From a virus, in IMG/VR virus record IMGVR_UViG_3300046051_000062: a DNA stretch of 64,000 nucleotides. One strand, given 5' to 3'. The notes below the pieces were generated by a model that searched no databases, was not told the origin of the DNA, and saw only the letters and a list, made by a program, of their open reading frames with translations. The translations under genes and the position numbers were made by a program. Shown here piece by piece: positions 4,192 through 15,935 of the stretch (positions are counted from its first letter, which is position 1; every line of letters starts with the position of its first letter).

Positions 4192-4365
4192 CTACTCGGG
4201 TGTGACCTCGAAGGAGTAGTGTTTCATCCCCGCGACCGTGTGGCCCGTTCGTTGGGCGTGCTGTGCGGCGTTGCCCTCGGCGTTCTTTCCCCCCGTCGAC
4301 CAATCGCACCCCTCCTGATCGCAATGCGCCACGGCGTCGACCATCCAGTTTTGGCTGTTCGCCAT
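4192..4365 (-). CDS. Small Cys/His zinc-binding protein
   Basis: HCDQEGCDW...HAQRTGH; start overlaps the upstream stop. Confidence 0.55.
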   Translation of the reverse strand: MANSQNWMVDAVAHCDQEGCDWSTGGKNAEGNAAQHAQRTGHTVAGMKHYSFEVTPE

Positions 4366-5006
4366 CAGTTGTCCACCCCCGTGTCGAAGAACCAGAGGTC
4401 GTTTGCCCACGCTGGCTTCTCGACAGCACCCTTGAGTGCTGTGGGGAACGCGAGGTATATCATCAACTGGTTTCGGTCGGTGTTGCCCTCCCGGAGCAGG
4501 TTGTACGCGGCCAGCCGGAGGTCGTTCGTCAAAAGATTAGACTTCGACGTTTCGCATTCCACGATGATCGTCTTGTCCTCGGCCATCCCTGTTTCGCCGG
4601 ACTCCATCTCCACGAAGATGTCCGGGTGCAGTTCCTTCTCGGAGTGTCCCGGCCCGTGGAACGAGTGCGTCGAGATGGACGAGGTGAACGCCAACGACTC
4701 GTTCTCGACGGTGATGCGGGCGTTCTTATCATAGTAGCGGTTCACCACCCGGTGGAGCGCCATCTGAATGAGTCGGTAGTGTTCGTTTCCACCGAACCGG
4801 CCGTGTACGTCGTCCGGGTCGAGATGCCGGTACGGGACACCGGCCCTCGCCTGGTACTTGTCCGCCCGGAGTTCGTCCGCGACCGACTCCAGTTTCGACG
4901 CCAGCCTGTCCTGTGGGTCGTGGAACCCGTCGAGGTCTTTCTCCGCGAGATAGTGGTCGATAACCCCCCGGATGTCGCCTTGGAAGAAGTCTGCTGCACT
5001 AACCAT
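4365..5006 (-). CDS. PD-(D/E)xK-like nuclease domain protein
   Basis: C-terminal HPDIFVE...IIVECETS motif. Confidence 0.5.
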   Translation of the reverse strand: MVSAADFFQGDIRGVIDHYLAEKDLDGFHDPQDRLASKLESVADELRADKYQARAGVPYRHLDPDDVHGRFGGNEHYRLIQMALHRVVNRYYDKNARITVENESLAFTSSISTHSFHGPGHSEKELHPDIFVEMESGETGMAEDKTIIVECETSKSNLLTNDLRLAAYNLLREGNTDRNQLMIYLAFPTALKGAVEKPAWANDLWFFDTGVDN

Positions 5007-5007
5007 G

Positions 5008-5211
5008 CTACGCGCCCCCTTCGGGGTCGTTCTTCCACTCGCAGCCCGACACCGTTATGTCTCCCGGATTGAGGTCGTGGATAAAGTAGAGGTTGCCAGC
5101 CTGGGTCATGTCCACGTCCTCGTACTCCTCGCCGCACACGGGGCAGTCGTCGTGGTCGTCTTCCGCGCTGCCGATGCGCTGGAGTTGCTCCGCGGTGGGT
5201 CCGCTGCTCAT
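5008..5211 (-). CDS. Small zinc-ribbon protein
   Basis: CPVCGEEY...GCEW; coupled to its neighbours. Confidence 0.55.
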   Translation of the reverse strand: MSSGPTAEQLQRIGSAEDDHDDCPVCGEEYEDVDMTQAGNLYFIHDLNPGDITVSGCEWKNDPEGGA

Positions 5212-5423
5212 TTGTCGTCCCCCTCGGCGTTGCGGAGGCCGACGATGCTTCGAGCACGCCCATCTGATGAAGCGACGTTGGTGGAGTATTCGATGGGTTT
5301 GCTTCTGTCGAGGAGGTTGTTTCTTTCCAGTCTCTTGAGTAACGTTTCGCTGATTCGGATGCGGATTCCCCGCCCTTGCACCTTCTGTGCCTTCTTCCAC
5401 TCTTTTTCTTCTGGTGGCATCAT
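5208..5423 (-). CDS. Small basic protein, AbrB-like
   Basis: KVQGRGIRIRISETLLKRL resembles the swapped-hairpin pattern. Confidence 0.4.
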   Translation of the reverse strand: MMPPEEKEWKKAQKVQGRGIRIRISETLLKRLERNNLLDRSKPIEYSTNVASSDGRARSIVGLRNAEGDDK

Positions 5424-5604
5424 TAACCCCTACACGGGCATGTTACGTACATCTTTTGGTGTCTCGTCCGCTGTGTCAATCCTGGGGGGAGCGAGTGGCC
5501 TGCACGGGGCGTGCCACTCGCCCCCCTTCTGCGCGCCGCTGGCGGCGCTCTCTGGATGGCAGGTTCAAATCCGGGGGTGGGGGTGACTGAACCGGCGTCT
5601 GACG

Positions 5605-7512
5605 CTACCGAAGAACGGCAGCGCCGATCTCTTGGGCGTCCACAGCGAGGGCGTCGCCGTCCTCGGGTAGTAGCGAGAGGACGAGGTTGTCGGCGTGCTC
5701 TGAGAAGTACTCTACCAGCGCCGAGATGCGCTTGGCGTCGATAGCTTCCAGCGAGTCCAATAGCATGAACGGCACCTCCTCGTGGACCTCGTGGACGAGG
5801 TAGCCCGCCAAGGCCACGACCAGGCCGATGACCTCCCGCTCGGACTCCGAGAGGGTGTCGATGGTGTCCTCGTAGACGACGCCGTCCTCGTCTTCCCGCA
5901 CGATGTGGAGGTCGAAGGACGCCTCGTCGGGGCCAGCCTCATCGGGGGCTTTCCGTTCCATCCACACGCGGGCGAGGTTCTCGTAGCCCAGGATGTCGAG
6001 CAGGCGTTCCATGTGGTCGTTGAACTGGTCGATGAGGCCCTGGTCGATGTCCTCGACTTTGGTGCGGAGCGCACTCATCTCCTCGATTATCTCCTCGCGG
6101 TCGGCGTCGAGGTCGTCGACCAGTTCGTCCGCGGCCCTCGCCGATTCGATGGCCTCCTCGATGTCGGCCAGTTCGGATTCCAGGCGTCCACGGCGGTAGT
6201 CGAGTTCGCTCCGCCGGGAGTACAGTTCCGAGAGGGTGCCGCTTTCGTCGTCGTCCATCTCGGGGATCTCCGCTTCGACCGCCTCGATGTCGGCCTGGAG
6301 TGTGTTCCGGCGCTCTTTGAACGATTCGACCTCGCGTTCGTGGTGGTCGCGGCGCTCGCGCAGGTTCGAGAGGCGGCGCTCGTGCTGGCGGTAGTCCTGG
6401 CGCTGGCCCTTGAGGTCGTCTATGTCGTCGTCCAGTTCCTCGATGCGGCCCCGGAGGGTCTGGCGCTGTTCGCGGCGGTCCTCGATGACTCCCGCCAGCG
6501 TCTCGACGTGTTCGGTTACGTCCTCGCGGGTGACCGTCGAGCCACAGAGCGGGCAGTCCATCTCGATGGACTGCGGGTCGAGTTCGGAGACGACCGACTC
6601 GTCCGCATCCCGAACGAACACGTCGAGGTCTTCGCTGGAGGCGCGTTGGGCAGCCTCAACGACGGATTCCAGCACCGAGATTTCGGTGTCCAGTGCGGAC
6701 ATCTCGTCGCGTACCTGTCGGCGCTGGTCTTCCAACCCGTCGACCTCCTCCTCCGGGGGGATGTCGAACTCCTCGTCCTCCAGGGCGTCGATGTCCTCCT
6801 GCACGCTGTCGTGTTCGGTGCGGTGGTGGTCTAACTTCTCATCCACGTCTGCGAGGTCGTCCCGGAGGTCATCGAGGCGGTCACGGAGTGCTTCGGCTTC
6901 ATCCAGTTCCGCCTCGGTGGCCTCGACATCCTCGATGTCCGCTTCCACGGCTTCGAGGTCGGCCTCGACCTCATCCAGTTCCGCTTCGACCTCAGAGTGT
7001 TTGCTCTGGTGGGCGGATAGGTTCGATGCCTCCGTCTTGGCGCGGTTGATCTGTGTGTCCAGGCGGTTGCGCTCGCCTAAGAGTTCACGTAGGCGGGAGT
7101 CGATGTCGTCCGTGTCGATTGGCCCCATCAGTGCGTCGCGGATGTCTCCGTCGGTTTGGACGACGCGGCGGATGGGGTTCTGTTCGAGTAGCGTGACGTA
7201 ATCGTCTACCAGGACCGACTCGTCGGTGTAGGGGGTGCCCGAGGTGGACACTCGTCCGTTCTCTCGTTCGAACCAGCGGGTGTGTTTGTTCCCGTCTATT
7301 TCGAGGACGACGCCGCCGTCGTCGGCGTCCGTTTTGAGGTTCGCCATTGACCCGCCGAGGGCGGCGTTGAGCGCGGTGAAAAGCGAGGTGCGGTTGGTGG
7401 CGTTTTCGCCGACGAACACCGTCACTCCCTGGTCGAACGGGACCGTTGTCTCCTCGATGCCGCCGACGTTCCGCACTGTCACTTCGATTTCGCGGGATGT
7501 CTCGACGGGCAT
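5605..7512 (-). CDS. sph: Archaea-specific SMC-related (Sph-family) ATPase
   Basis: N-terminal VRNVGGI...VGENATNRTSL (variant Walker A), long coiled coil with central CPLCG zinc hook, C-terminal LSESERE signature and MLLDSLEAID (Walker B/D-loop). Confidence 0.9.
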   Translation of the reverse strand: MPVETSREIEVTVRNVGGIEETTVPFDQGVTVFVGENATNRTSLFTALNAALGGSMANLKTDADDGGVVLEIDGNKHTRWFERENGRVSTSGTPYTDESVLVDDYVTLLEQNPIRRVVQTDGDIRDALMGPIDTDDIDSRLRELLGERNRLDTQINRAKTEASNLSAHQSKHSEVEAELDEVEADLEAVEADIEDVEATEAELDEAEALRDRLDDLRDDLADVDEKLDHHRTEHDSVQEDIDALEDEEFDIPPEEEVDGLEDQRRQVRDEMSALDTEISVLESVVEAAQRASSEDLDVFVRDADESVVSELDPQSIEMDCPLCGSTVTREDVTEHVETLAGVIEDRREQRQTLRGRIEELDDDIDDLKGQRQDYRQHERRLSNLRERRDHHEREVESFKERRNTLQADIEAVEAEIPEMDDDESGTLSELYSRRSELDYRRGRLESELADIEEAIESARAADELVDDLDADREEIIEEMSALRTKVEDIDQGLIDQFNDHMERLLDILGYENLARVWMERKAPDEAGPDEASFDLHIVREDEDGVVYEDTIDTLSESEREVIGLVVALAGYLVHEVHEEVPFMLLDSLEAIDAKRISALVEYFSEHADNLVLSLLPEDGDALAVDAQEIGAAVLR

Positions 7513-7513
7513 C

Positions 7514-8164
7514 CTACTTGACCCCCATTACGGCGTCTGTGTCGTCGTCCTGCACCGTACAGTCACAGCCGCCTGTGCGGATGAGTTCTTGTGGTGGCGT
7601 GGTTCGGGCGCACTCGTGGCAGCGGACGCGGGCGGTGACGGTGATCGTGTAGTCGTCGGGCAGGCGGATGTTGCCCGCTTCGAGGAGCCGGTGGATGCCT
7701 CTGTCGATGACGTTTTCTACGATGTCGAGTCGGTCGGTGATGTGGTCGAGCACGTCGGGGGGGTCCGTTGCGCCCGTGTAGGAGGTGTCCACGTCGAGGA
7801 ATTCGTTGAGGTGTTGTTTGACGGTCATGTGGGAGATGAACTGCTCGGTTAGCGTGTCCACGTTCACGCCGAGGAACGAGAGCTTGTCCCGGACCGTGGC
7901 GGTGGTGGTCGCGTCGGCCTCCTCGCTGACTAACGCCTCGTAGACAGTTTCCGGGGGGCCGAGTCCTCTGCCGCCGATGTCGTTCATGACCGTGGATAGG
8001 ATGTGGACGTTTACCTTTCGGGCGACTGCTCGGAGCGACTCGTCTTCTTCGACGTACCACCGGCGGATGTGGCTGTTGAGGTCGTCCAGGTCGCGTTCGC
8101 GGGCGACCTTGCCTATCTTGCAGTTACACGTCGGTCGGTTCTCCTGGCGTTTCGTTAATGACAT
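7514..8164 (-). CDS. rdfA: Rod-determining factor RdfA family protein
   Basis: N-terminal CNCKIGKVA, middle FISHMTVKQHL, C-terminal CHEC...GGCDC; directly upstream of the Sph gene, the known haloarchaeal pairing. Confidence 0.8.
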   Translation of the reverse strand: MSLTKRQENRPTCNCKIGKVARERDLDDLNSHIRRWYVEEDESLRAVARKVNVHILSTVMNDIGGRGLGPPETVYEALVSEEADATTTATVRDKLSFLGVNVDTLTEQFISHMTVKQHLNEFLDVDTSYTGATDPPDVLDHITDRLDIVENVIDRGIHRLLEAGNIRLPDDYTITVTARVRCHECARTTPPQELIRTGGCDCTVQDDDTDAVMGVK

Positions 8165-8372
8165 GCGCACATGGTGTTTGGGGACGCATCCACCTTAGTT
8201 ATACAGTCGGTAACAGCAGGTGCCGTTACGTACACCAGCAAGTAAGGTCTTCTTACTTTGATCCTACCGTATTGCTGTCCCTCAGTTTCCACTTCCAGCC
8301 CACACTTGAGCGTGATACTTCCCACTGGAGCCGTCGCTCACCGCCAGGGCGAACGACCCCCCCCCGAGCCGG

Positions 8373-11300
8373 CTACCCAGGCGGTGGTCCCCCCTTCTTG
8401 AACCACTCAAACGTGGACTGGTGGGTCCAGCACCGCTCCTCCTCGCGCGAGGTGTTATAAGCACAATTCGGCAACGCATCAACCGCAACGGTGAACGTAT
8501 TAGATACCCCATACGCGGGATGCAATGGTTCGTCGTCACCAGGGCTGAGGTCCACGTCTCCGCCGGGGGTAAAGGCGTCGCTCGGGGAGTAGAGGTCTGC
8601 GCCGTAGGGGCCAGCACCCGGCGTCCGTTCGAGTATGCCCCGCTCCTCTGCCTTCTTCAACGTCCGCCACGCGGCCTGCTTCGAGCAGCCGCAGGCGTCG
8701 GCAACCTCCTTAGCGGTCGCGCCCGCGCCGCTGTCGCGGACGTACTCCAGGCGTTCGCGCTGGTCGTCGTTAGTCGTCCACGTCACGCCGGGGGCCTGGG
8801 CGTCGATGAAGCCAGTCGGCGCGGCCTCCGTGACGACGAACACCGTTGCATGGTCTTCGGGGTCCTCTGCGTTCCTCGCCCACCGCCCTACACTCTGCGC
8901 GACGTGGTGTTCGCGTACTCCCTGGAGGACCGCATCCGCCATGTCGGCGTCCGGCCCCTCGAAAGTACGGCCATGCTCGCGGACCTCGCCGTCCCCGTAG
9001 CACGTCTCGCACATCTCCTCGCCGTCCTCGTCCACATATCCTGCCCCCTCGCAGATGGGGCACACGTCAACAACGGGTTCGGCATCGAGGTCCAGCCGCG
9101 CCAGCAGGTCCATCACCACGTTATCGCCTGGATCTATGGACCCGACCACCAGTCCGATGTTCTCGCCCTCGAAGTCGTTGCGGCTTTCCTCGTTACCGAA
9201 GTGCATCATCTCGGGGTCCTCGCAGCCGGCGTCCTCCATCGCGTTCCGAATCGTCGGGCGGGCGGCCATGCTGGTGATGGCCGTCTTGAAGTCCTCGCCG
9301 TACTGCTCTCGCAGGTGTTCGATGATGGCCTCGAACTTCTCTCCTTGGCCTTCGTCCAGCCATTGTCCGCTTGTCACGGGCTGCACTCCGTGCCCGACCT
9401 GTACCGTGAACAACCCCCGTTCGTATCGCCGGTAGAGGGTTCGCTCCTCGGTGTCGAGGGTGTAGTCGGTGGACATATCCGGGTGGATGTTCGCCTGCCA
9501 GGTCGGGTCCTCCGGTTGTGGGTGGGCGTCCAGGCCGACAACGGAGGAGGCCAGCGAGAAGTCCGGCATCGACTGAACGTCCACGATTTCCCACTGGTCG
9601 TTCAGTACCACGTCCACGAACACCCGGTTCCACCCGGACTCGTCGTGGGCGCTGTCATCGAACCGTGGTGGGTGGTACGGAATCCGGGCTGCCTTCCGTC
9701 CGCCGGCTCGTTCGTCGGCCTTCCAGATTGCCCGGGTGAACGCTGGGGCGAGTGCGTGGGCGTCGCGGTTCCCGCGGTACCACGATAGCGACGGCTTCGC
9801 GGCCCGGGTCTGAATCTCCCCGTCGCCGTCGCACCGGGGACAGGTGTCGCTGCTGGCCGCCCCGCCGTGTTGGTCGTAGTCCGTAATCTGCTGGTACTCC
9901 GACCCGCCCCGCGTTTCCTTGCCGTCGCCTCCACAGCGTGGGCAGTCGGTCGTCTCGGGGTACGGCGACAGCGCCGCGTCCATCTGCTCCTCGAAGCATT
10001 TCTTGTATTCGCCGAGCATGGTCCCGCCGACCACCCGGTTGCCCGCGACCTCCGGCTCACAGTTGTGTTGGGCGGCGAACACCAGGTCTGAGTAGTTGTC
10101 AACCGGGGCGTCACACCACTCCAGGTAGGCGTTCACCGACCTGCGGACCCGCTCTGCGTCGATGTCGATGCCGAACGCTGGTTTCTCGTCCAAAAAGATG
10201 TGGGTGTGCATCCGCAGTGACGGGACGTGGGTGAACTGGTGGGTGCAGTGAATCACGTCGTGTGTCGGCTCCCCTGCGTCGTTCCGGGGAATGCCCTCGA
10301 ACTGGCCTTTCGCCGGGCACTCGGACTCTCCCTCCTCGCAGGGCATGGTCCCGGCGACCTCTGCTTTCGCCCACTTGTGGACGACCGAGAACGGGATGCC
10401 CTGCTTGTCACAGCGGTGGTCTATCCACTCGGAGATGGGCACGCCGTCGATGGTCAGCGACCGCGAGTTCGCGCTACTTCCCGGGTCGAAGTCGCCGGCT
10501 GCGACGGGGCACAACTCCTTGCGCCCTTTGAGCGTGTAGGCGTCCACCCCTTCGTCGTCGCTCATTTGGCGTGCCTGGTCCCTGGCTTCGTGAGTGCGGT
10601 GTGCGTGGATAACCGGCTTGCCGTCAGTGGGCGAGTCTGCCCGGTCCCATGGCTCGGTGGCGACGGTGTGGGTCTTGCCCGCGCCGGTCGGTGACGCTTT
10701 CACGACCGTCTCGCCCTCCGCCACGGAATGCATGATGGTGTCGCAGAGACGGTCGCGTACCTCGTCCACATCCGGCCACTCGATGCCGCGCTGCTCTGCG
10801 TACCGGACCCGCTCCTCGTGGGAGAGCCGGTCGAGGCGTTCCAGCGGGAGGGTGGCAACTGGCTCGGCGTCCCCGTCACCGTCGTCGTTTTCCTCCGGCT
10901 CCATCTGCTCGCCGCTGGCTGCCTTGTCGATGGTGTGGGCCAGGTAGTCATCCCGGTCGGTTACCTTTTGCCTGGTCCTGTAATCCCGTATGATGCGGGC
11001 GATGTCCCGCTCCGAGTACCTCCAGAAGTGGAGTTTGGATGCGGCGGCGAAGTCGGCCTCGCTGGCCGAGGGATACGAGTAGCCGCCAGGCACGAGCGAC
11101 GAAAGGAGGGCGTCGAGTTTGTCGTCCCTGTTTCGGATGGAGTCCAGCGACATCCCGAGGTCGTTCTGGTACCGGCCACCGCCGCCTGCTTCACTTGAAC
11201 TGGTGGAGGGGTCCGGGAGGTCGTCATAGTCCTCCATATCCTTCTTGACTGAGGGTTGGAACTCCTCGGGTATCTCGTCTCCCGCCAGGGTCGCCCACTC

Positions 11301-12005
11301 GCTGTCATCGGTGATGTGGTAAACGCCTCCCGACGGGTGAATCGACCCGGGCGTGATGACATACCAGTTCTCGGCCTTCACCTCGCCTGTGCCGCCGTAT
11401 TCCCCTTTCGCAAACGCCCGTTCGACGTTCCCGTCGTTGTGGTAGTAGAGGTGTTCCCCGTCGCCGGACCCGGACATACCTTTGCCCGTGGATGGGAACT
11501 CCCGGTAGGGGAACTCGTCGGGTTCGTCCACGTCTACCACGGCGAATCCCTCGGTGCCGTGGTCGTCTTTTCCCGCGTAGATGCAGAACCCCGGATAGTC
11601 CTCCTCGAAGATGAGCCGCACGGCTTCGTCAGGGGTGACAAGGAACGACCGTCCCTTCGGCGAGTCGAGACTGGCCTCCCCCGAGATGGCCGGCTCCTTC
11701 GAATCCTCCTTAAGCGGCATGAGCATCGGCCGGCTGCCGAACTCCCGCTTGAACGCCTTGAGGAACTCGATAAGGTGCTGTGCCCGCTCTTGCGGGGTCA
11801 CGTCATCGTAGTCGATGGGGTTGTTGTGGTCTTCGTCTGGGTTCAGGTATCCGTCCTCTGCACCGATGTCCTCATCGGGCTCGTCGCTCTCCGGGGTGCA
11901 ATCGGGGCAGATGAAGGCGTTGCCGAACCGTTCGAGGCTCTCCGTGGAACCACATTTAAAGCACGATGCGCCAGCGTCGTTGTCGTCGGGTGTTTCGTCG
12001 GACAT
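8373..12005 (-). CDS. Replication protein: bifunctional primase-polymerase fused to an SF2-like helicase and C-terminal wHTH
   Basis: Prim-pol motifs (AVVDVD, GEHLYY, GEVKAENWYVITPGSIHPSGGVY); helical SEADF domain; Walker A SPTGAGKT; Walker B IFLDEKP; four CxxCxGxG motifs; C-terminal TAKEVADACGCSKQAAWRTL HTH. Confidence 0.85.
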   Translation of the reverse strand: MSDETPDDNDAGASCFKCGSTESLERFGNAFICPDCTPESDEPDEDIGAEDGYLNPDEDHNNPIDYDDVTPQERAQHLIEFLKAFKREFGSRPMLMPLKEDSKEPAISGEASLDSPKGRSFLVTPDEAVRLIFEEDYPGFCIYAGKDDHGTEGFAVVDVDEPDEFPYREFPSTGKGMSGSGDGEHLYYHNDGNVERAFAKGEYGGTGEVKAENWYVITPGSIHPSGGVYHITDDSEWATLAGDEIPEEFQPSVKKDMEDYDDLPDPSTSSSEAGGGGRYQNDLGMSLDSIRNRDDKLDALLSSLVPGGYSYPSASEADFAAASKLHFWRYSERDIARIIRDYRTRQKVTDRDDYLAHTIDKAASGEQMEPEENDDGDGDAEPVATLPLERLDRLSHEERVRYAEQRGIEWPDVDEVRDRLCDTIMHSVAEGETVVKASPTGAGKTHTVATEPWDRADSPTDGKPVIHAHRTHEARDQARQMSDDEGVDAYTLKGRKELCPVAAGDFDPGSSANSRSLTIDGVPISEWIDHRCDKQGIPFSVVHKWAKAEVAGTMPCEEGESECPAKGQFEGIPRNDAGEPTHDVIHCTHQFTHVPSLRMHTHIFLDEKPAFGIDIDAERVRRSVNAYLEWCDAPVDNYSDLVFAAQHNCEPEVAGNRVVGGTMLGEYKKCFEEQMDAALSPYPETTDCPRCGGDGKETRGGSEYQQITDYDQHGGAASSDTCPRCDGDGEIQTRAAKPSLSWYRGNRDAHALAPAFTRAIWKADERAGGRKAARIPYHPPRFDDSAHDESGWNRVFVDVVLNDQWEIVDVQSMPDFSLASSVVGLDAHPQPEDPTWQANIHPDMSTDYTLDTEERTLYRRYERGLFTVQVGHGVQPVTSGQWLDEGQGEKFEAIIEHLREQYGEDFKTAITSMAARPTIRNAMEDAGCEDPEMMHFGNEESRNDFEGENIGLVVGSIDPGDNVVMDLLARLDLDAEPVVDVCPICEGAGYVDEDGEEMCETCYGDGEVREHGRTFEGPDADMADAVLQGVREHHVAQSVGRWARNAEDPEDHATVFVVTEAAPTGFIDAQAPGVTWTTNDDQRERLEYVRDSGAGATAKEVADACGCSKQAAWRTLKKAEERGILERTPGAGPYGADLYSPSDAFTPGGDVDLSPGDDEPLHPAYGVSNTFTVAVDALPNCAYNTSREEERCWTHQSTFEWFKKGGPPPG

Positions 12006-12183
12006 GGGTGTCCCTAAAGGTTTAAGTAGACCGCGACACAAGGAGAGTATGTGTGCGTCTTCCTTCTGGCGCGGTCCGCTTTCGAGGAGATACTTCTTCC
12101 CCTTCCGTGTTAAAGCTTGGGTCCCTCTCGTGAGCGCCGGTACCTTGTAGTCAGTCCGGTGTTAATACTACTACGTAGCCACG

Positions 12184-12663
12184 ATGATGACCGCCCGCGA
12201 CCTACTCGACGGCGACGCTCTCCTCCCTGGGGATGTCGTCGTGGACAAGACGACGCACCGCCCCATGCAAGTGACCGGCTACGAACAGCGCAACGCCGAA
12301 CAAGTACCCGAGGTGTGGGAGAGCAACGTCAACCAGCACGGCCTGTCGCTCGACCCCGAGGCAAGCGTCATCGAACTTATCGACCTCCCGACGGGCAACC
12401 ACTACTACGTCCCCGAGGAAATCGAGCGGTTCCCGACCGACCGCCTCATGCGCATCATCACCGAACCCGCGACCGATGAACGCCGCGTCCAAGAGAAGGT
12501 CGTCCGGTCCGTGATGGCCCACCTGCTATCCGACCTCCGCACCCACGACGACGGGATAGTAGCCGCCTCCGCCCTCCTCGACGTGTGCCAGACCCATTGG
12601 GGCGACGAATACGTCTCGGAAGTAGCCGAGTTCGCCGAACTCGTCGCCGACATCGGACACTAA
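12184..12663 (+). CDS. Hypothetical protein
   Basis: Acidic 159-aa ORF divergent from the replication gene. Confidence 0.65.
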   Translation: MMTARDLLDGDALLPGDVVVDKTTHRPMQVTGYEQRNAEQVPEVWESNVNQHGLSLDPEASVIELIDLPTGNHYYVPEEIERFPTDRLMRIITEPATDERRVQEKVVRSVMAHLLSDLRTHDDGIVAASALLDVCQTHWGDEYVSEVAEFAELVADIGH

Positions 12664-12961
12664 CCAGTCCTCCTCCCGTGCGGTAGACGGCTGGCGTGGG
12701 AACTGGCGTTCTCGACGCCCACCGTGTCGATCACCCCCGGTGGCCAGGGGACCAGAGCGGGGTCCGAACAACGTAGAACCACCTTCGCTCCAGAACCACC
12801 ACCGCCCGTGCCCTTAGCGCGCTTTACTAATACAACGGACACAAGCCGCGCGTATAGACATGGTAAACCCCGGCTGAACCAGCCAGCCTATTCGACCCCA
12901 CACGGGGGATATTAGACCTTTTGGGACAATTATATCAGACAGGGGGTCAAAGGGTGGATAC

Positions 12962-14650
12962 ATGCCGGACGTTGACCCGGTGACATACGAAGCAATCGAC
13001 CACGTAATCGAGAACCGCGACCCCCAAGCGGAGTGGGCGCCCGAGGAGATGCGGAAAGCCCTGAAAGAACACGCCAAGGGAACGAGTCAATCCCAGGCCG
13101 TCGGGGACCGTGACTTCTCCCAGGCTCTCCTCTCGAAACGGTGGGCGGACGTGGAGGAGGTGGCCGACGAACTGCGACAGCAGTACGAGGCCGACACGGC
13201 ACTGTTCAAAGACCCCATCCAGCAGGCAGCCGACCAGTTCCGCGAGTTCTTCGAGGAACTGGACGAGGAGTACGGGTTCGGGATCAATGACCTCGCCGTC
13301 CGCATGATGGTGGACGAGATAGAGGAGGCGGGACAGTTGCCCGCCCCGATGTACGTCAAGCAGTTCCTCGACAGCGCGAAATCCGGGGTGGGCAACGCCC
13401 AGACCCTCAACTACATCACGCGCCGGTACTCGACCTGGCTGGAGAACTACCAGCAGGACTCCATGAGTGACCCGGGGATGGACCCGGGCCAGGGGTTCAG
13501 CGGGCCGAGCATCCAGCAGACCCAGCCGCCCCAACAGGGCATGGCTGGCGGCCCGCAGGTCGGCACGGAAGCGGACATGTTTCCCAACCAGCAACAGGAA
13601 CAGTCACAGCCGCCCCGCCGACACCCCCCGGAGCCACAACAGCAACACGACCCCCGCATCGACCAACTCCAAGAGCAGGTCGAGCAGCTAACGGAGGTCG
13701 TCGCACAGCAAGCCCAGGGCGACGACGGGGAGACGGAGTACATCCGGGTCGAGCAGGACGATGGGACGGTCATCGAACTGCCGGTGGACGACCCGCGTGC
13801 CAAGCAGATGTTCGAAGACGACGAGGAGGACATGTTCGAACAGATGCGAAAACTTTGCGAACTCGGCCTCATCGTCACCCCCACCGACCTGGAGGACGAC
13901 TCCGGGGACGCCATGGGCGAGGCGGTCGCGGAGGCCATCGAGTCCCTCGGTCAGCGCCAGATGCAGATGCAACAGCAGCAGGCCGAGCGGTTCGAGAGCG
14001 TCCTCGAACAGATACGCGAATCCGAGGAGGACGACGAACCCGACCTGTCTGGCGAGGACGTGCGCGACATCATCAACGACGAACTCAAGGAGGACGAGGT
14101 GGATCGGCTCGAACGGGAACTCCAGCGGACACGCGAGAGCATGGAGGAGGAACTCAAGAGCGTCAAGCGGGCGGGCGGGGTCGAGCAAAACCCCGAGTTC
14201 GCCAAGCGCGACCGCGAAATCGAGTTCCAAGAGGAGTCCCTGCGGACCCTCAACGAGAACCTCCAGGTCCTCCCGGAGAAAGTGTCGGCCGCCCTCCGTG
14301 ACGGCATCGTCCCCGCGATGAAGGAGGTCCAGCACATGCAGCCCGGCGAAGGCCACCCCGCCTGGAGTCCGCCAGCCCAACAACAGCAGGGCGAGCCAGC
14401 CTACGTCCCCGAGGAGGCCCAACAGCCCGACCCCCAGCCCCAGCCACAACCCCGCCAGCAACAACCCACCACCGAGGAGTCCTACCCGGACCCCGAAGTG
14501 CCACCACAGGGGCGTGAGCCCGAGCGGCAAACGGCACACGAACAAACGGACCAAGCGGAACCAGAGCAATCGAACGAGCAGAAGGCAGCGGAGGTCCGAG
14601 AGCGGCTCGGACTGACTGACAGCGACACCCCCCAGGAGGTCGAAGCATGA
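12962..14650 (+). CDS. Large acidic coiled-coil protein with Q/P-rich linkers
   Basis: 562 aa, heptad-like EQLQEQVEQL and DRLERELQRTRE segments; stop overlaps the next start. Confidence 0.8.
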   Translation: MPDVDPVTYEAIDHVIENRDPQAEWAPEEMRKALKEHAKGTSQSQAVGDRDFSQALLSKRWADVEEVADELRQQYEADTALFKDPIQQAADQFREFFEELDEEYGFGINDLAVRMMVDEIEEAGQLPAPMYVKQFLDSAKSGVGNAQTLNYITRRYSTWLENYQQDSMSDPGMDPGQGFSGPSIQQTQPPQQGMAGGPQVGTEADMFPNQQQEQSQPPRRHPPEPQQQHDPRIDQLQEQVEQLTEVVAQQAQGDDGETEYIRVEQDDGTVIELPVDDPRAKQMFEDDEEDMFEQMRKLCELGLIVTPTDLEDDSGDAMGEAVAEAIESLGQRQMQMQQQQAERFESVLEQIRESEEDDEPDLSGEDVRDIINDELKEDEVDRLERELQRTRESMEEELKSVKRAGGVEQNPEFAKRDREIEFQEESLRTLNENLQVLPEKVSAALRDGIVPAMKEVQHMQPGEGHPAWSPPAQQQQGEPAYVPEEAQQPDPQPQPQPRQQQPTTEESYPDPEVPPQGREPERQTAHEQTDQAEPEQSNEQKAAEVRERLGLTDSDTPQEVEA

Positions 14651-15468
14651 AACTGAAAGATGTCCCCACAAAAGTGTTGATAGGCTCAGGAAAAGGCGGC
14701 GTCGGGAAGACGACGGTCGCGTCCGACATCGCCAAGACAGCAGCCGAACTGGTCGATGCGGTCGGCCTCATCGACGCCGACATCTCGACGCCGAACACAC
14801 CCCAGGTGGTCGGCGGCGAAGGAATGGACGTATCCAGCCAACGCCTCGCCACCGGAGACGCCCTGGTGCCCCCGGACGTAGACGGCATCCAGGTCATCTC
14901 CCAGGGCATGGTCCTCCCGGACGACGTGCCCGTCCTGCGCGGGGCGCAGTGGCGTGCAGAGACGGTCGCCGACTACATCAGCAACGTCGAGTGGGCCGAC
15001 GACACCGAACTGGTCGTCATCGACAGCCCGCCCGGCAGCGGCGGCGAACTCCAGACGGTCGCGTCGATGGTCGCTCTCGATCACGCCTACGTCGTCACGA
15101 CCCCCCATCCCTCGTCGGTCCGTGACGCCACCAAGACCCACGAGTTCTTCAACCAGGCAAACGTCCCCCATTCGGTCCTGCTGAACATGGCGTACATCCC
15201 CCACACCGACATCGTCCAGCACGTCACCAGTACAACCGACTTCGAGGACATCCAGGGTATCGGCGAGGCCAAGGCCGAATCCATCGCGGAACTGATGGAC
15301 GAGCAGGCCCCCGACTTCGACCTGTTCGGCCACGAGGCCGGCTACGAGGCCCCCATCGACGCCCCGCAGGCCGGTGTCATCCCCTACACCGACCAGTTCT
15401 CCCTGCGCAGCATGGTGCTGGAGAATGTGCTGGGTGACCTCCTCGACGCACAGGAGGTCGAAGCATGA
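14647..15468 (+). CDS. Mrp/NBP35-like (SIMIBI) P-loop ATPase
   Basis: GSGKGGVGKTT, DADISTPN, VIDSPPG and VTTP motifs. Confidence 0.85.
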   Translation: MKLKDVPTKVLIGSGKGGVGKTTVASDIAKTAAELVDAVGLIDADISTPNTPQVVGGEGMDVSSQRLATGDALVPPDVDGIQVISQGMVLPDDVPVLRGAQWRAETVADYISNVEWADDTELVVIDSPPGSGGELQTVASMVALDHAYVVTTPHPSSVRDATKTHEFFNQANVPHSVLLNMAYIPHTDIVQHVTSTTDFEDIQGIGEAKAESIAELMDEQAPDFDLFGHEAGYEAPIDAPQAGVIPYTDQFSLRSMVLENVLGDLLDAQEVEA

Positions 15469-15935
15469 GCCAGGAGCAACCCGACATGGGGCTCGTCGGG
15501 CAGACTATCGCCGGCTTGTTGGGTACTGTCAACGAAGGGTTCGACTGGGATGTCATCGAGCGCCGCTACGACGAAGACCCCGTAGGCACGGCCATGGCAC
15601 TCCACTTCACCGACGAGGGCGGCGAGGACGCCGACGAGAGCGTTCTCCTGGGTATCGCCGACGGGCCGCGCATCGTCATGCTCGATGAACTAACGGACGA
15701 GTGGGAGTACATCGGTGCCATCGTCACCTACCAGCGGTTCGGCCTCCGCATCCTCGACCCGATTGATGATATGACACCGGACAAAGCCCGCTACCAGCAT
15801 CGCGGTGTCACCATCTACCCCGGCGAGGAGGAATCCCGCGAGCGTGTGTGGCTCGTCGTGTCGAACGTCCTCGACATCATGCTGGAGACAGTCATCTACA
15901 AGGCCAACCAGCAGGCCGAGGAGGAGCCAGCATGA
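15465..15935 (+). CDS. Hypothetical protein
   Basis: Translationally coupled acidic ORF. Confidence 0.7.
   Translation: MSQEQPDMGLVGQTIAGLLGTVNEGFDWDVIERRYDEDPVGTAMALHFTDEGGEDADESVLLGIADGPRIVMLDELTDEWEYIGAIVTYQRFGLRILDPIDDMTPDKARYQHRGVTIYPGEEESRERVWLVVSNVLDIMLETVIYKANQQAEEEPA

What the first reader, a model, noticed from the sequence alone, without database searches (positions are those of the whole stretch)
5605..8164. Mobile element carries the RdfA-Sph cell-shape gene pair
Seen: an rdfA-like gene directly upstream of an archaeal SMC-like Sph gene. Established: in Haloferax volcanii the adjacent rdfA and sph3 genes are needed for rod formation. Inference: the element may remodel host shape or motility state, or reuse the pair for DNA organisation. 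It sits right next to the replication gene.
Basis: partly seen in the sequence, partly recalled or inferred. Interest (0 to 1): 0.7.

Follow-up and report, generated by a model that had tools for sequence, protein, structure and literature searches.

The report
Divergent RdfA-Sph pair on archaeal element
An uncultured salt-crystal archaeal plasmid or virus carries an intact but very divergent copy of a two-gene set (RdfA plus an SMC-like protein) that is already known from haloarchaeal chromosomes and from over a hundred of their plasmids; it is optional cargo, so this is a modest addition and not a new system.

Summary
Window 7514-8164(-) encodes an RdfA-family protein (Pfam PF21811, E 4e-36). 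Window 5605-7512(-) encodes an archaea-specific SMC-related (Sph) protein (NCBIfam NF045487, 563 bits). One base separates the two genes, and they lie directly downstream of a 1222-aa PrimPol-helicase-wHTH replication gene.

The surroundings look like a mobile element from a halite metagenome. Most genes are ORFans, there is an integrase and an Mrp/MinD-like ATPase, and there are no rRNA or tRNA genes. Whether it is a virus or a plasmid is open.

The idea that this placement is special is weak:
- 110 (RdfA) and 124 (Sph) haloarchaeal plasmids in PLSDB already carry these genes.
- This scan has reported the pair before, on the H. volcanii plasmids pHV3 and pHV4 and on a Halogeometricum megaplasmid.
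- None of 65 metagenomic loci with the same replication gene has the pair, nor does a syntenic relative (L096) or an integrated relative in Halalkalicoccus. The pair is therefore accessory cargo.

The copy is intact and keeps all family motifs. It is only 42-53% (Sph) and 46% (RdfA) identical to its nearest relatives. Its zinc hook reads CPLCG, unlike the family's CWTCG. An AU test rejects orthology with the rod-determining Sph3 (p 0.0006).

What it does for the element is untested. I class it as a new member of a known kind, of modest interest.

The parts
7514..8164 (-). rdfA-like gene, 216 aa (an alternative GTG start at 8170 gives 218 aa). It has an N-terminal CxCK motif, a helical core and a C-terminal CxxC...CxC zinc ribbon.
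   Evidence: Pfam PF21811 at E 4e-36, full profile length. It keeps 18 of 22 family columns that are at least 80% conserved, including C182, C185, C200, C202, K16 and S43-L44-R45. The AF2 model has mean pLDDT 89.7.
5605..7512 (-). sph / ASRP gene, 635 aa. It is a Rad50/SMC-like protein with a P-loop-like GENATNRTS (residues 35-43), a coiled coil, a CPLCG zinc hook (320-324), an LSESERE signature (554-560) and LLDSLEAID (Walker B and D-loop region, 584-592).
   Evidence: NCBIfam NF045487 at 563 bits against a cut-off of 300; translation. It keeps 87 of 103 family columns that are at least 90% conserved. It deviates at the hook (family CWTCG) and at F287-N288.
8165..8372 (-). Non-coding spacer of about 200 nt between the replication gene and rdfA. 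A TATA-like 'TGTATAACT' lies about 30-40 nt before the start codon and is a candidate promoter for the pair.
   Evidence: Sequence read directly. ORFs in this stretch lack the haloarchaeal GC3 bias. That it is a promoter is inference.
8373..12041 (-). Replication gene: PrimPol domain, P-loop NTPase, Cys-rich zinc ribbons and a C-terminal wHTH (1222-aa ORF; the JGI call is 1210 aa).
   Evidence: Pfam PF09250, MarR_2/HTH and RepB_primase_C; PHROG primase families; 25 relatives at up to 59% identity; invariant P-T-G-K motif at 439-444.
5486..5526 (-). A 14-bp GC-rich hairpin about 80 nt downstream of the sph stop codon. It may mark the end of the transcript.
   Evidence: Inverted repeat I11. RNA fold -38.1 kcal/mol, z -2.35 against shuffles. 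No T-run follows it, so its function is inference.

Best explanation
This is an intact, co-inherited rdfA-sph cassette carried as optional cargo by a PrimPol-replicon mobile element (plasmid or virus) of an uncultured halite haloarchaeon.

Shown:
- Both proteins are full-length members of their families.
- They are tightly coupled, with one base between them.
- They sit in congruent places in the two gene trees.
- They belong to a divergent lineage that is not orthologous to H. volcanii Sph3.
- They are absent from every relative of the element that could be examined.

Inferred mechanism: Sph is a Rad50-like coiled-coil protein that dimerises through its CxxC zinc hook. RdfA is a helical protein with a Cys4 zinc ribbon that works with Sph as one unit, as in H. 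volcanii, where deleting either gene abolishes rods.

Because the pair is accessory and not core, I think it most likely acts as a host-modulating cargo gene set that changes host cell organisation (shape, motility or nucleoid state), at about 40%. It is less likely to be part of the element's own replication or partition machinery (about 25%). A hitch-hiking paralogue with no element-specific role (about 20%) and exclusion of competing DNA (about 10%) remain possible.
For: Family identity.

Coupling and separate flanks.

Congruent trees: the window's RdfA groups with P0123 and P0124 (SH-like 98) and then with L044 and L066. Its Sph also groups with L044 and L066.

A sister pair exists. The Sph fragment P0006 (53% identity, hook CPMCG) and the RdfA P0299 (45%) are both recorded on a contig of the same length, 9,266 bp, so they probably share one contig.

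Not Sph3: the clade holding Sph3, Sph2 and Sph4 has SH-aLRT 100 and excludes the window's protein. An AU test rejects the window's Sph grouping with Sph3 (p 0.0006).

Accessory status:
- 0 of 65 metagenomic loci (468 kb) with a PrimPol homologue hold RdfA or Sph.
- The syntenic relative L096 has unrelated ORFans after its PrimPol gene.
- The Halalkalicoccus homologue lies in a chromosomal low-GC island, far from that genome's three rdfA copies.

Mobile-element context.

The cassette is present at 96-99% identity in other halite samples of the same study. All listed variants keep the frame open.

Published basis for the unit and for shape effects (PMC10869688): deleting rdfA or sph3 leaves disk-only, non-motile cells; H. 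salinarum Sph1 overexpressed in H. volcanii gives rods; 78-84% of family copies are adjacent.
Against: There is no experiment on this copy.

The shape phenotype is shown only for the Sph3 lineage, and by overexpression for Sph1. This copy belongs to neither.

Its position directly after the replication gene, and near an Mrp/MinD-like ATPase operon, would also fit a maintenance role.

RdfA has no recognisable fold match: Foldseek found nothing at E <= 1e-3 and the best VIA Z was 4.9. Its biochemical role is therefore unknown.

The whole family has a non-canonical P-loop (N-R where G-K is usual) and LLDS where the Walker B D-E is usual. Even ATPase activity is therefore uncertain.

Only 64 of about 90 kb of the contig could be read, and its ends and topology are unknown.
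Confidence: 0.55

Rival explanations
1. The pair is the element's own DNA organisation or segregation module. RdfA would bind sites on the element and recruit the hook-dimerised Sph as a tether, working beside the PrimPol replicase and the Mrp/MinD-like ATPase. The divergent hook would keep it from mixing with host paralogues.
For: It lies immediately downstream of the replication gene, and a divergent operon with an Mrp/MinD-like ATPase lies 4 kb away. It has SMC/Rad50-like architecture with a zinc hook. The hook reads CP[LM]CG in the window and its sister, against CWTCG in 99% of the family. RdfA shows weak HTH-like structural echoes at Z 4-4.6, which is not significant. One of the nearest cellular copies, L066, has an Orc1/Cdc6 gene 2.3 kb away.
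Against: No relative of the replicon carries the pair. Plasmid copies lie in varied, mostly metabolic contexts. Several replicons carry 2-3 copies, so 'one per replicon' does not hold. H. volcanii mutants lacking rdfA or sph3 have no growth defect (PMC10869688).
Confidence: 0.25
2. The contig is not an autonomous mobile element. It is part of a host chromosome or megaplasmid (for example an integrated island), and the pair is simply one of the host's ordinary rdfA-sph paralogues.
For: Haloarchaea carry about 1.8 rdfA copies per genome, 127 matches in 71 genomes, on chromosomes and secondary replicons. The PrimPol homologue of Halalkalicoccus is chromosomally integrated. The window holds some metabolic-type genes: polyprenyl synthase, UbiA and subtilase. 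The pair's GC content matches its surroundings.
Against: Across 64 kb there is no housekeeping, rRNA or tRNA gene and few family matches. The window has virus-like shared genes and a 23-kb array of small ORFs. Depth is flat at about 52x over 20 kb. The pair is far more divergent than cellular paralogues are from each other: its end branch is 0.96-1.27 against a median of 0.17-0.48.
Confidence: 0.12
3. The pair is an SMC-like exclusion or defence system (analogous to Wadjet or Lamassu) that the element uses against competing plasmids or viruses.
For: Sph gives PADLOC hits to LmuB (E 1e-19) and JetC (E 4e-11). One paper speculates that an SMC-like gene flanked by two hypothetical genes, induced on HRTV-DL1 infection of Halorubrum lacusprofundi, might exclude viruses (PMC10544981).
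Against: The PADLOC matches cover mainly the coiled coil and generic SMC features. RdfA matches no defence family. No LmuA, JetA, JetB or JetD nuclease or kleisin partner is present. The family occurs in 62 of 71 genomes sampled, which is unlike patchy defence islands. The published phenotypes concern shape and motility.
Confidence: 0.08

Closest known systems
H. volcanii RdfA (HVO_2174) / Sph3 (HVO_2175), the rod-determining pair (Schiller et al. 2024, PMC10869688)
   Same: It has the same two families in the same order and orientation (rdfA directly upstream of sph). It has the same motifs: RdfA CxCK and Cys4; Sph P-loop-like GxNATNRTS, CxxC hook, LSESERE and LLDSLEAID.
   Different: It is not orthologous. 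Sph3 lies in a clade with SH-aLRT 100 that excludes the window's protein, and the AU test gives p 0.0006. The hook is CPLCG instead of CWTCG. The gene sits on an ORFan-rich PrimPol element rather than the main chromosome. Function is untested.
Plasmid-borne rdfA-sph pairs: H. salinarum pNRC200 rdfA-sph2; H. volcanii pHV3 (B0118 and B0173 regions) and pHV4 (A0180 region); 110-124 PLSDB haloarchaeal plasmids
   Same: It is an extrachromosomal copy of the same module. In the 145-row FastTree the window's Sph falls in a clade with H. salinarum Sph2 and plasmid copies (SH-like 96). The mixture-model trees do not resolve this grouping.
   Different: Among the records listed, these hosts are 52-kb to 1.6-Mb plasmids, mostly over 90 kb. 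Those inspected carry Orc1/Cdc6 initiators or metabolic genes. Here the carrier replicates with a PrimPol-helicase and is mostly ORFans. Identity to any of these copies is at most 33% for RdfA; for Sph it is 36-43% where most of the protein aligns and about 44-53% in partial alignments.
ASRP family (Sulfolobus ClsN/coalescin, Halobacterium Sph1/Sph2; Yoshinaga et al. 2022, PMC9389158)
   Same: It is a member by the curated NCBIfam model. It has SMC-like head halves, a coiled coil and a zinc hook.
   Different: That paper reports no conserved neighbouring genes across ASRPs as a whole and does not use the words plasmid or virus. ClsN acts in chromosome compartmentalisation, and nothing comparable is known for Sph.
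Rad50 zinc-hook proteins
   Same: The apex motif CP[LM]CG in the window and its sister resembles the CxxC hook. The best PDB sequence matches are Rad50 heads, at E 0.005.
   Different: No Mre11 partner is present. The NCBIfam Rad50 models score far below their cut-offs (36-50 bits against 700-1087). The protein is only 635 aa.

Membership tests
RdfA family (Pfam PF21811) | Profile match above the gathering score over the whole domain | tested here: met
   125 bits against a cut-off of 27, profile positions 1-195 of 195. HMMER against 1.84 billion representatives found 364 relatives.
RdfA family (Pfam PF21811) | Conserved N-terminal CxCK and C-terminal CxxC...CxC cysteines, SLR...N and FVSHxTV motifs | tested here: met
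   C13/C15-K16, S43-L44-R45, N52, FISHMTV, C182, C185, C200 and C202 are present. 18 of 22 conserved columns agree.
RdfA family (Pfam PF21811) | Encoded next to an Sph/ASRP gene (78-84% of copies, PMC10869688) | tested here: met
   One base separates the genes here. RdfA was found in 69 of 80 Sph loci from reference genomes.
RdfA family (Pfam PF21811) | Required for rod formation and motility | not testable with these tools
   This needs genetics and microscopy. It is shown only for HVO_2174 (PMC10869688).
ASRP / Sph (NCBIfam NF045487) | Equivalog model above the curated cut-off over its full length | tested here: met
   563 bits against 300, positions 1-593 of 593.
ASRP / Sph (NCBIfam NF045487) | N-terminal P-loop-like motif, C-terminal signature and Walker B/D-loop, central coiled coil with a CxxC hook | tested here: met
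   All head motifs match the family consensus. The hook is present but reads CPLCG where 99% of the family have CWTCG.
Orthologue of H. volcanii Sph3 (the copy with a shown shape function) | Groups with HVO_2175 in a phylogeny | tested here: not met
   Sph3 and its Haloferax S1W orthologue (70% identity) lie in a clade with SH-aLRT 100 that excludes the window's protein. The AU test rejects joining them, p 0.0006, delta lnL 59.9. Caveats: the group was named after the tree was seen, and the window's branch is long.
Mobile genetic element (plasmid or virus) | Own replication gene of a type found on mobile elements, a recombinase, and no cellular core genes | tested here: met
   PrimPol-helicase-wHTH gene. 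Its relatives occur on small contigs, in an integrated low-GC island near a tRNA-Thr gene, and (C-terminal part only) on 9-11-kb plasmids. Integrase: phrog_1, E 3e-12. No tRNA or rRNA genes.
Mobile genetic element (plasmid or virus) | Closed circular or terminally defined genome, separate from the host chromosome | not testable with these tools
   Only 64 of 90.3 kb can be seen. The contig is absent from the collections scanned.
Archaeal virus | Capsid, portal or terminase genes | tested here: inconclusive
   The Pfam and PHROG scans covered 52 of the window's predicted proteins and found none. Most of the small-ORF array and 26 kb of the contig were not scanned. One 668-aa protein is shared with tailed haloviruses, but it is of unknown function.
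SMC-type defence systems (Lamassu LmuB, Wadjet JetC) | Model match together with the system's partner genes (LmuA; JetA, JetB, JetD) | tested here: not met
   There are only partial LmuB and JetC matches, mainly over the coiled coil. RdfA and the six neighbouring genes scanned give no partner hit.

The most novel reading that the evidence does not exclude
The carrier is a virus or virus-like plasmid, and its private rdfA-sph pair has a hook (CP[LM]CG) that cannot pair with host Sph proteins. The pair would be expressed on entry to switch the host between rod and disk or motile and non-motile states, or to reorganise the host nucleoid. That would make it the first mobile-element-encoded cell-shape or cell-organisation determinant in archaea.
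Probability: 0.15. Interest if true: 0.7.

Novelty: new member of a known kind. Interest (0 to 1): 0.33.

Why it matters
The biochemistry of the RdfA-Sph module is unknown, even though it occurs in most haloarchaea sampled (62 of 71 genomes). A compact, highly divergent copy on a small mobile element, with an altered hook, is a natural 'orthogonal' variant. It could be expressed in Haloferax volcanii to ask three questions:
- whether a foreign pair is enough to change shape or nucleoid state;
- whether RdfA and Sph are specific for each other;
- whether the hook decides which partners pair.

As a catalogue entry it adds little, because plasmid-borne copies are already annotated in large numbers.

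Tried and rejected
- Complex prediction of Sph with RdfA (alignments A1 and A2) returned 'no answer', score 0.00. This is neither for nor against binding.
- Fold search of the confident RdfA model found no Foldseek hit at E <= 1e-3 and a best VIA-align Z of 4.9. The kleisin-like or clear wHTH idea for RdfA found no support, and the fold stays unassigned.
- IMG/VR scans with Sph, RdfA, PrimPol, the Sph alignment and the sister fragment P0006 found nothing. These are pattern-based scans, so the absence is weak evidence.
- tblastn of RdfA and Sph against 50,697 phage and archaeal-virus records found no match.
- Megablast of 25 kb of the window against PLSDB and INPHARED found no match.
- The look-up of sequencing runs listed no RNA holder. 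This says nothing about expression.
- The joints reported by read laying all have sides of at most 24 nt and are taken to be repeat artefacts.
- A flanking repeat or insertion scar around the cassette was sought; only chance-level short repeats turned up.
- The 'one pair per replicon' idea was rejected, because several contigs hold 2-3 rdfA copies.
- The idea that plasmid copies cluster at replication genes was checked in six records, and the contexts vary.
- The syn/non-syn count from contig variants (6:6 in rdfA, 1:2 in sph, 5:0 in PrimPol) is too small and too selected to carry weight.
Full report
**Observation**

On the minus strand, an ORF at 7514-8170 matches Pfam RdfA (PF21811) over the whole profile, at E 4e-36 and 125 bits. 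It is 216 aa from the ATG at 8164, which agrees with the JGI gene call P0121. The ORF at 5605-7512 (635 aa) matches the curated NCBIfam equivalog for archaea-specific SMC-related proteins, NF045487, at 563 bits against a cut-off of 300.

The rdfA stop codon (7516-7514) and the sph start codon (7512-7510) are one base apart. Upstream on the same strand, after about 200 nt of non-coding DNA, lies a 1222-aa ORF (8373-12041). It has a PrimPol domain, an invariant P-loop, cysteine-rich zinc ribbons and a C-terminal winged helix.

**The proteins**

The window's Sph shows the family's head motifs, a CxxC hook at residues 320-323 and a long coiled coil. In an alignment of 145 family members it agrees with 87 of the 103 columns that are at least 90% conserved. 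This includes every head motif: GxNATNRTS, LSESERE and LLDSLEAID.

The notable departures are at the apex. The hook reads CPLCG where 99% of the family read CWTCG, and the conserved F-N just before the hook is A-A.

RdfA keeps 18 of 22 conserved columns, including the four C-terminal cysteines and the N-terminal CxCK. An AlphaFold2 model built on a 40-sequence alignment is confident (mean pLDDT 89.7). It shows a helical protein ending in a small zinc-ribbon-like element. Neither Foldseek nor VIA-align finds a convincing fold match: nothing at E <= 1e-3, and a best Z of 4.9. Both genes look functional, but the biochemistry of RdfA stays open.

**The carrier**

The window has no tRNA or rRNA genes, and most of its roughly 70 predicted proteins match no family. 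What can be recognised is listed here.
- the PrimPol-type replication gene
- an Mrp/MinD-like P-loop ATPase in a divergent operon
- a tyrosine recombinase
- a few isoprenoid and protease genes
- proteins shared with tailed haloviruses but of unknown function

Earlier notes of this scan on the same window describe a 23-kb array of small ORFs and call the contig an uncultured halite virus or plasmid.

The protein database records the contig as 90,266 bp. The DNA is found in halite metagenomes of one study. In the probable source run, depth is flat at about 52x over the first 20 kb. In two other samples the rdfA region is present at 96-99% identity.

No capsid, portal or terminase gene was found among the proteins scanned, but 26 kb of the contig could not be read. 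Plasmid versus virus is undecided, and an integrated state cannot be excluded.

**Relatives of the pair**

The module is common.
- RdfA-family matches occur in 62 of 71 sampled Halobacteria genomes (127 matches, up to 5 per genome). Several contigs hold two or three copies.
Of the best 80 loci, 69 have RdfA nearby, mostly directly upstream.
- In PLSDB, 110 plasmids hold RdfA and 124 hold Sph. Most are already annotated by PGAP as 'rod-determining factor RdfA' and 'archaea-specific SMC-related protein' or 'Sph2'.
- Three of the four H. volcanii copies are on pHV3 and pHV4.
- This scan has reported such plasmid pairs before, on other DNA.
- No phage or archaeal-virus record, and no IMG/VR contig reached by the pattern scans, has either gene.

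**Phylogeny**

The window's proteins are far from all others.
- The best full-length Sph match is 42% identical. A truncated metagenomic protein, P0006, is 53% identical and shares the unusual hook as CPMCG.
- The best RdfA matches are 45-46% identical, P0123 and P0299.
- P0006 and P0299 are both recorded on a contig of 9,266 bp, so they are probably a sister pair.

In FastTree and IQ-TREE (PMSF mixture) trees, Sph sits on a long branch beside two cellular copies: L044, a MAG contig with metabolic neighbours, and L066, a Halovenus scaffold with Orc1/Cdc6 and glycerol genes nearby. The RdfA tree places the window's RdfA next to the RdfAs of the same two loci. The two genes have therefore travelled together.

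I located the true H. volcanii rdfA-sph3 locus at G030:C1:2.046 Mb. This agrees with the coordinate of 2,049,208 that the paper gives for the insertion upstream of hvo_2176. Sph3 falls in a clade with SH-aLRT 100, together with Sph2 and Sph4, and that clade excludes the window's protein. An AU test rejects a window+Sph3 clade (p 0.0006). The caveats are that the group was named after the tree was seen and that the window's branch is long. The copy is therefore not an orthologue of the pair whose role in rod formation was shown.

**Is the pair part of the element's core?**

The PrimPol protein has 25 relatives at up to 59% identity. A profile scan of metagenome contigs returned 65 loci totalling 468 kb, and none contains RdfA or Sph.

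One locus, L096, shares four further genes with the window. They lie on the same side of, and in the same orientation to, the PrimPol gene. L096 has unrelated ORFans where the window has rdfA-sph.

In Halalkalicoccus salilacus the homologue sits in a low-GC chromosomal island close to a tRNA-Thr gene. That genome's three rdfA copies lie elsewhere.

Plasmid-borne pairs in other genomes sit among varied, often metabolic, genes. Adjacency to the replication gene is thus a peculiarity of this element, and the pair is accessory cargo.

**How it most likely works**

Established for the family (PMC10869688):
- rdfA and sph are adjacent in about 80% of copies.
- Deleting either HVO_2174 or sph3 gives disk-only, non-motile cells with no growth defect.
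- H. salinarum Sph1 overexpressed in H. volcanii gives rods.

Inferred from the sequence: Sph is a Rad50-like coiled-coil protein that dimerises through its zinc hook, and RdfA is its zinc-ribbon partner, made from the same transcript.

Because the cassette is optional for this replicon family, I favour a host-modulating cargo role at about 40%. This would be a change of shape, motility or nucleoid state that benefits the element. A dedicated maintenance role comes second at about 25%. A passive paralogue (about 20%) and DNA exclusion (about 10%) remain open. PADLOC gives only generic coiled-coil matches to LmuB and JetC and no partner genes.

The divergent hook, shared with the sister copy, could prevent mixed dimers with host Sph proteins. 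This is inference only. The complex prediction gave no answer (listed under tried and rejected).

**Verdict**

This is a new, unusually divergent member of a known and widespread gene pair. It sits on a mobile element type not previously seen with it, but plasmid-borne copies are commonplace and no new mechanism is shown. Interest is modest. It would rise if the carrier proved to be a virus, or if the pair were shown to reprogramme host shape.

Noticed in passing
window 5009-5423 (-): Between sph and the next long gene lie two short ORFs that my GC3 filter missed. One is a 71-aa basic ORF (5208-5423) whose N-terminal 'GIRIRISETLLKRLE' looks ribbon-helix-helix-like by eye. Its stop codon overlaps, as ATGA, the start of a 67-aa acidic CPxCG zinc-finger microprotein (5009-5212). 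That ORF ends 4 nt before the start of the 213-aa gene at 4365-5006. NCBIfam matched none of the three.
   Followed up: partly
window 12184-15935 (+): A divergent operon lies opposite the PrimPol gene. It holds ORFs of 159 aa, 562 aa (no family match), 273 aa (an Mrp/MinD-type P-loop ATPase; its nearest solved relatives are Fe-S carrier Mrp proteins and archaeal MinD) and 156 aa, with overlapping stop and start codons. A held preprint title states that MinD2 modulates shape and motility in H. volcanii. The element thus carries two gene sets with possible links to cell organisation.
   Followed up: partly
Sph family alignment A1; window Sph residues 35-43 and 584-592: The whole Sph family has GxNATNRTS, with N-R where the Walker A G-K is usual, and LLDSLE where the Walker B D-E is usual. 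Whether these proteins hydrolyse ATP at all seems an open question for the family, not only for this copy.
   Followed up: partly
L096 (LFFM01000559.1, 26 kb) against window 8.4-33 kb: This related metagenomic element shares the PrimPol-helicase gene, the 668-aa halovirus-like gene and three smaller genes with the window. They lie on the same side of, and in the same orientation to, the PrimPol gene. It lacks rdfA-sph and instead has a 589-aa ORFan after the PrimPol gene.
   Followed up: partly
G002:C1:1,572,000-1,603,000 (loci L166-L168): In the Halalkalicoccus salilacus chromosome a 1315-aa PrimPol-helicase homologue lies in an island of about 30 kb with 54-60% GC (flanks 66%). The island ends near a tRNA-Thr gene, so it is probably an integrated element of the same replicon family.
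   Followed up: partly
window 7800 (rdfA codon 122): A variant contig in another halite sample (X4) changes F122 to C. Cys is the family's consensus residue at that position ('HLxxCL').
   Followed up: no
window 5713-5742: Logan's assembly of the source run breaks inside the 3' end of sph, and many short divergent contigs pile up at 5713-6030. The likely cause is that the conserved C-terminal head motifs are shared with many other sph genes in the same metagenome.
   Followed up: no
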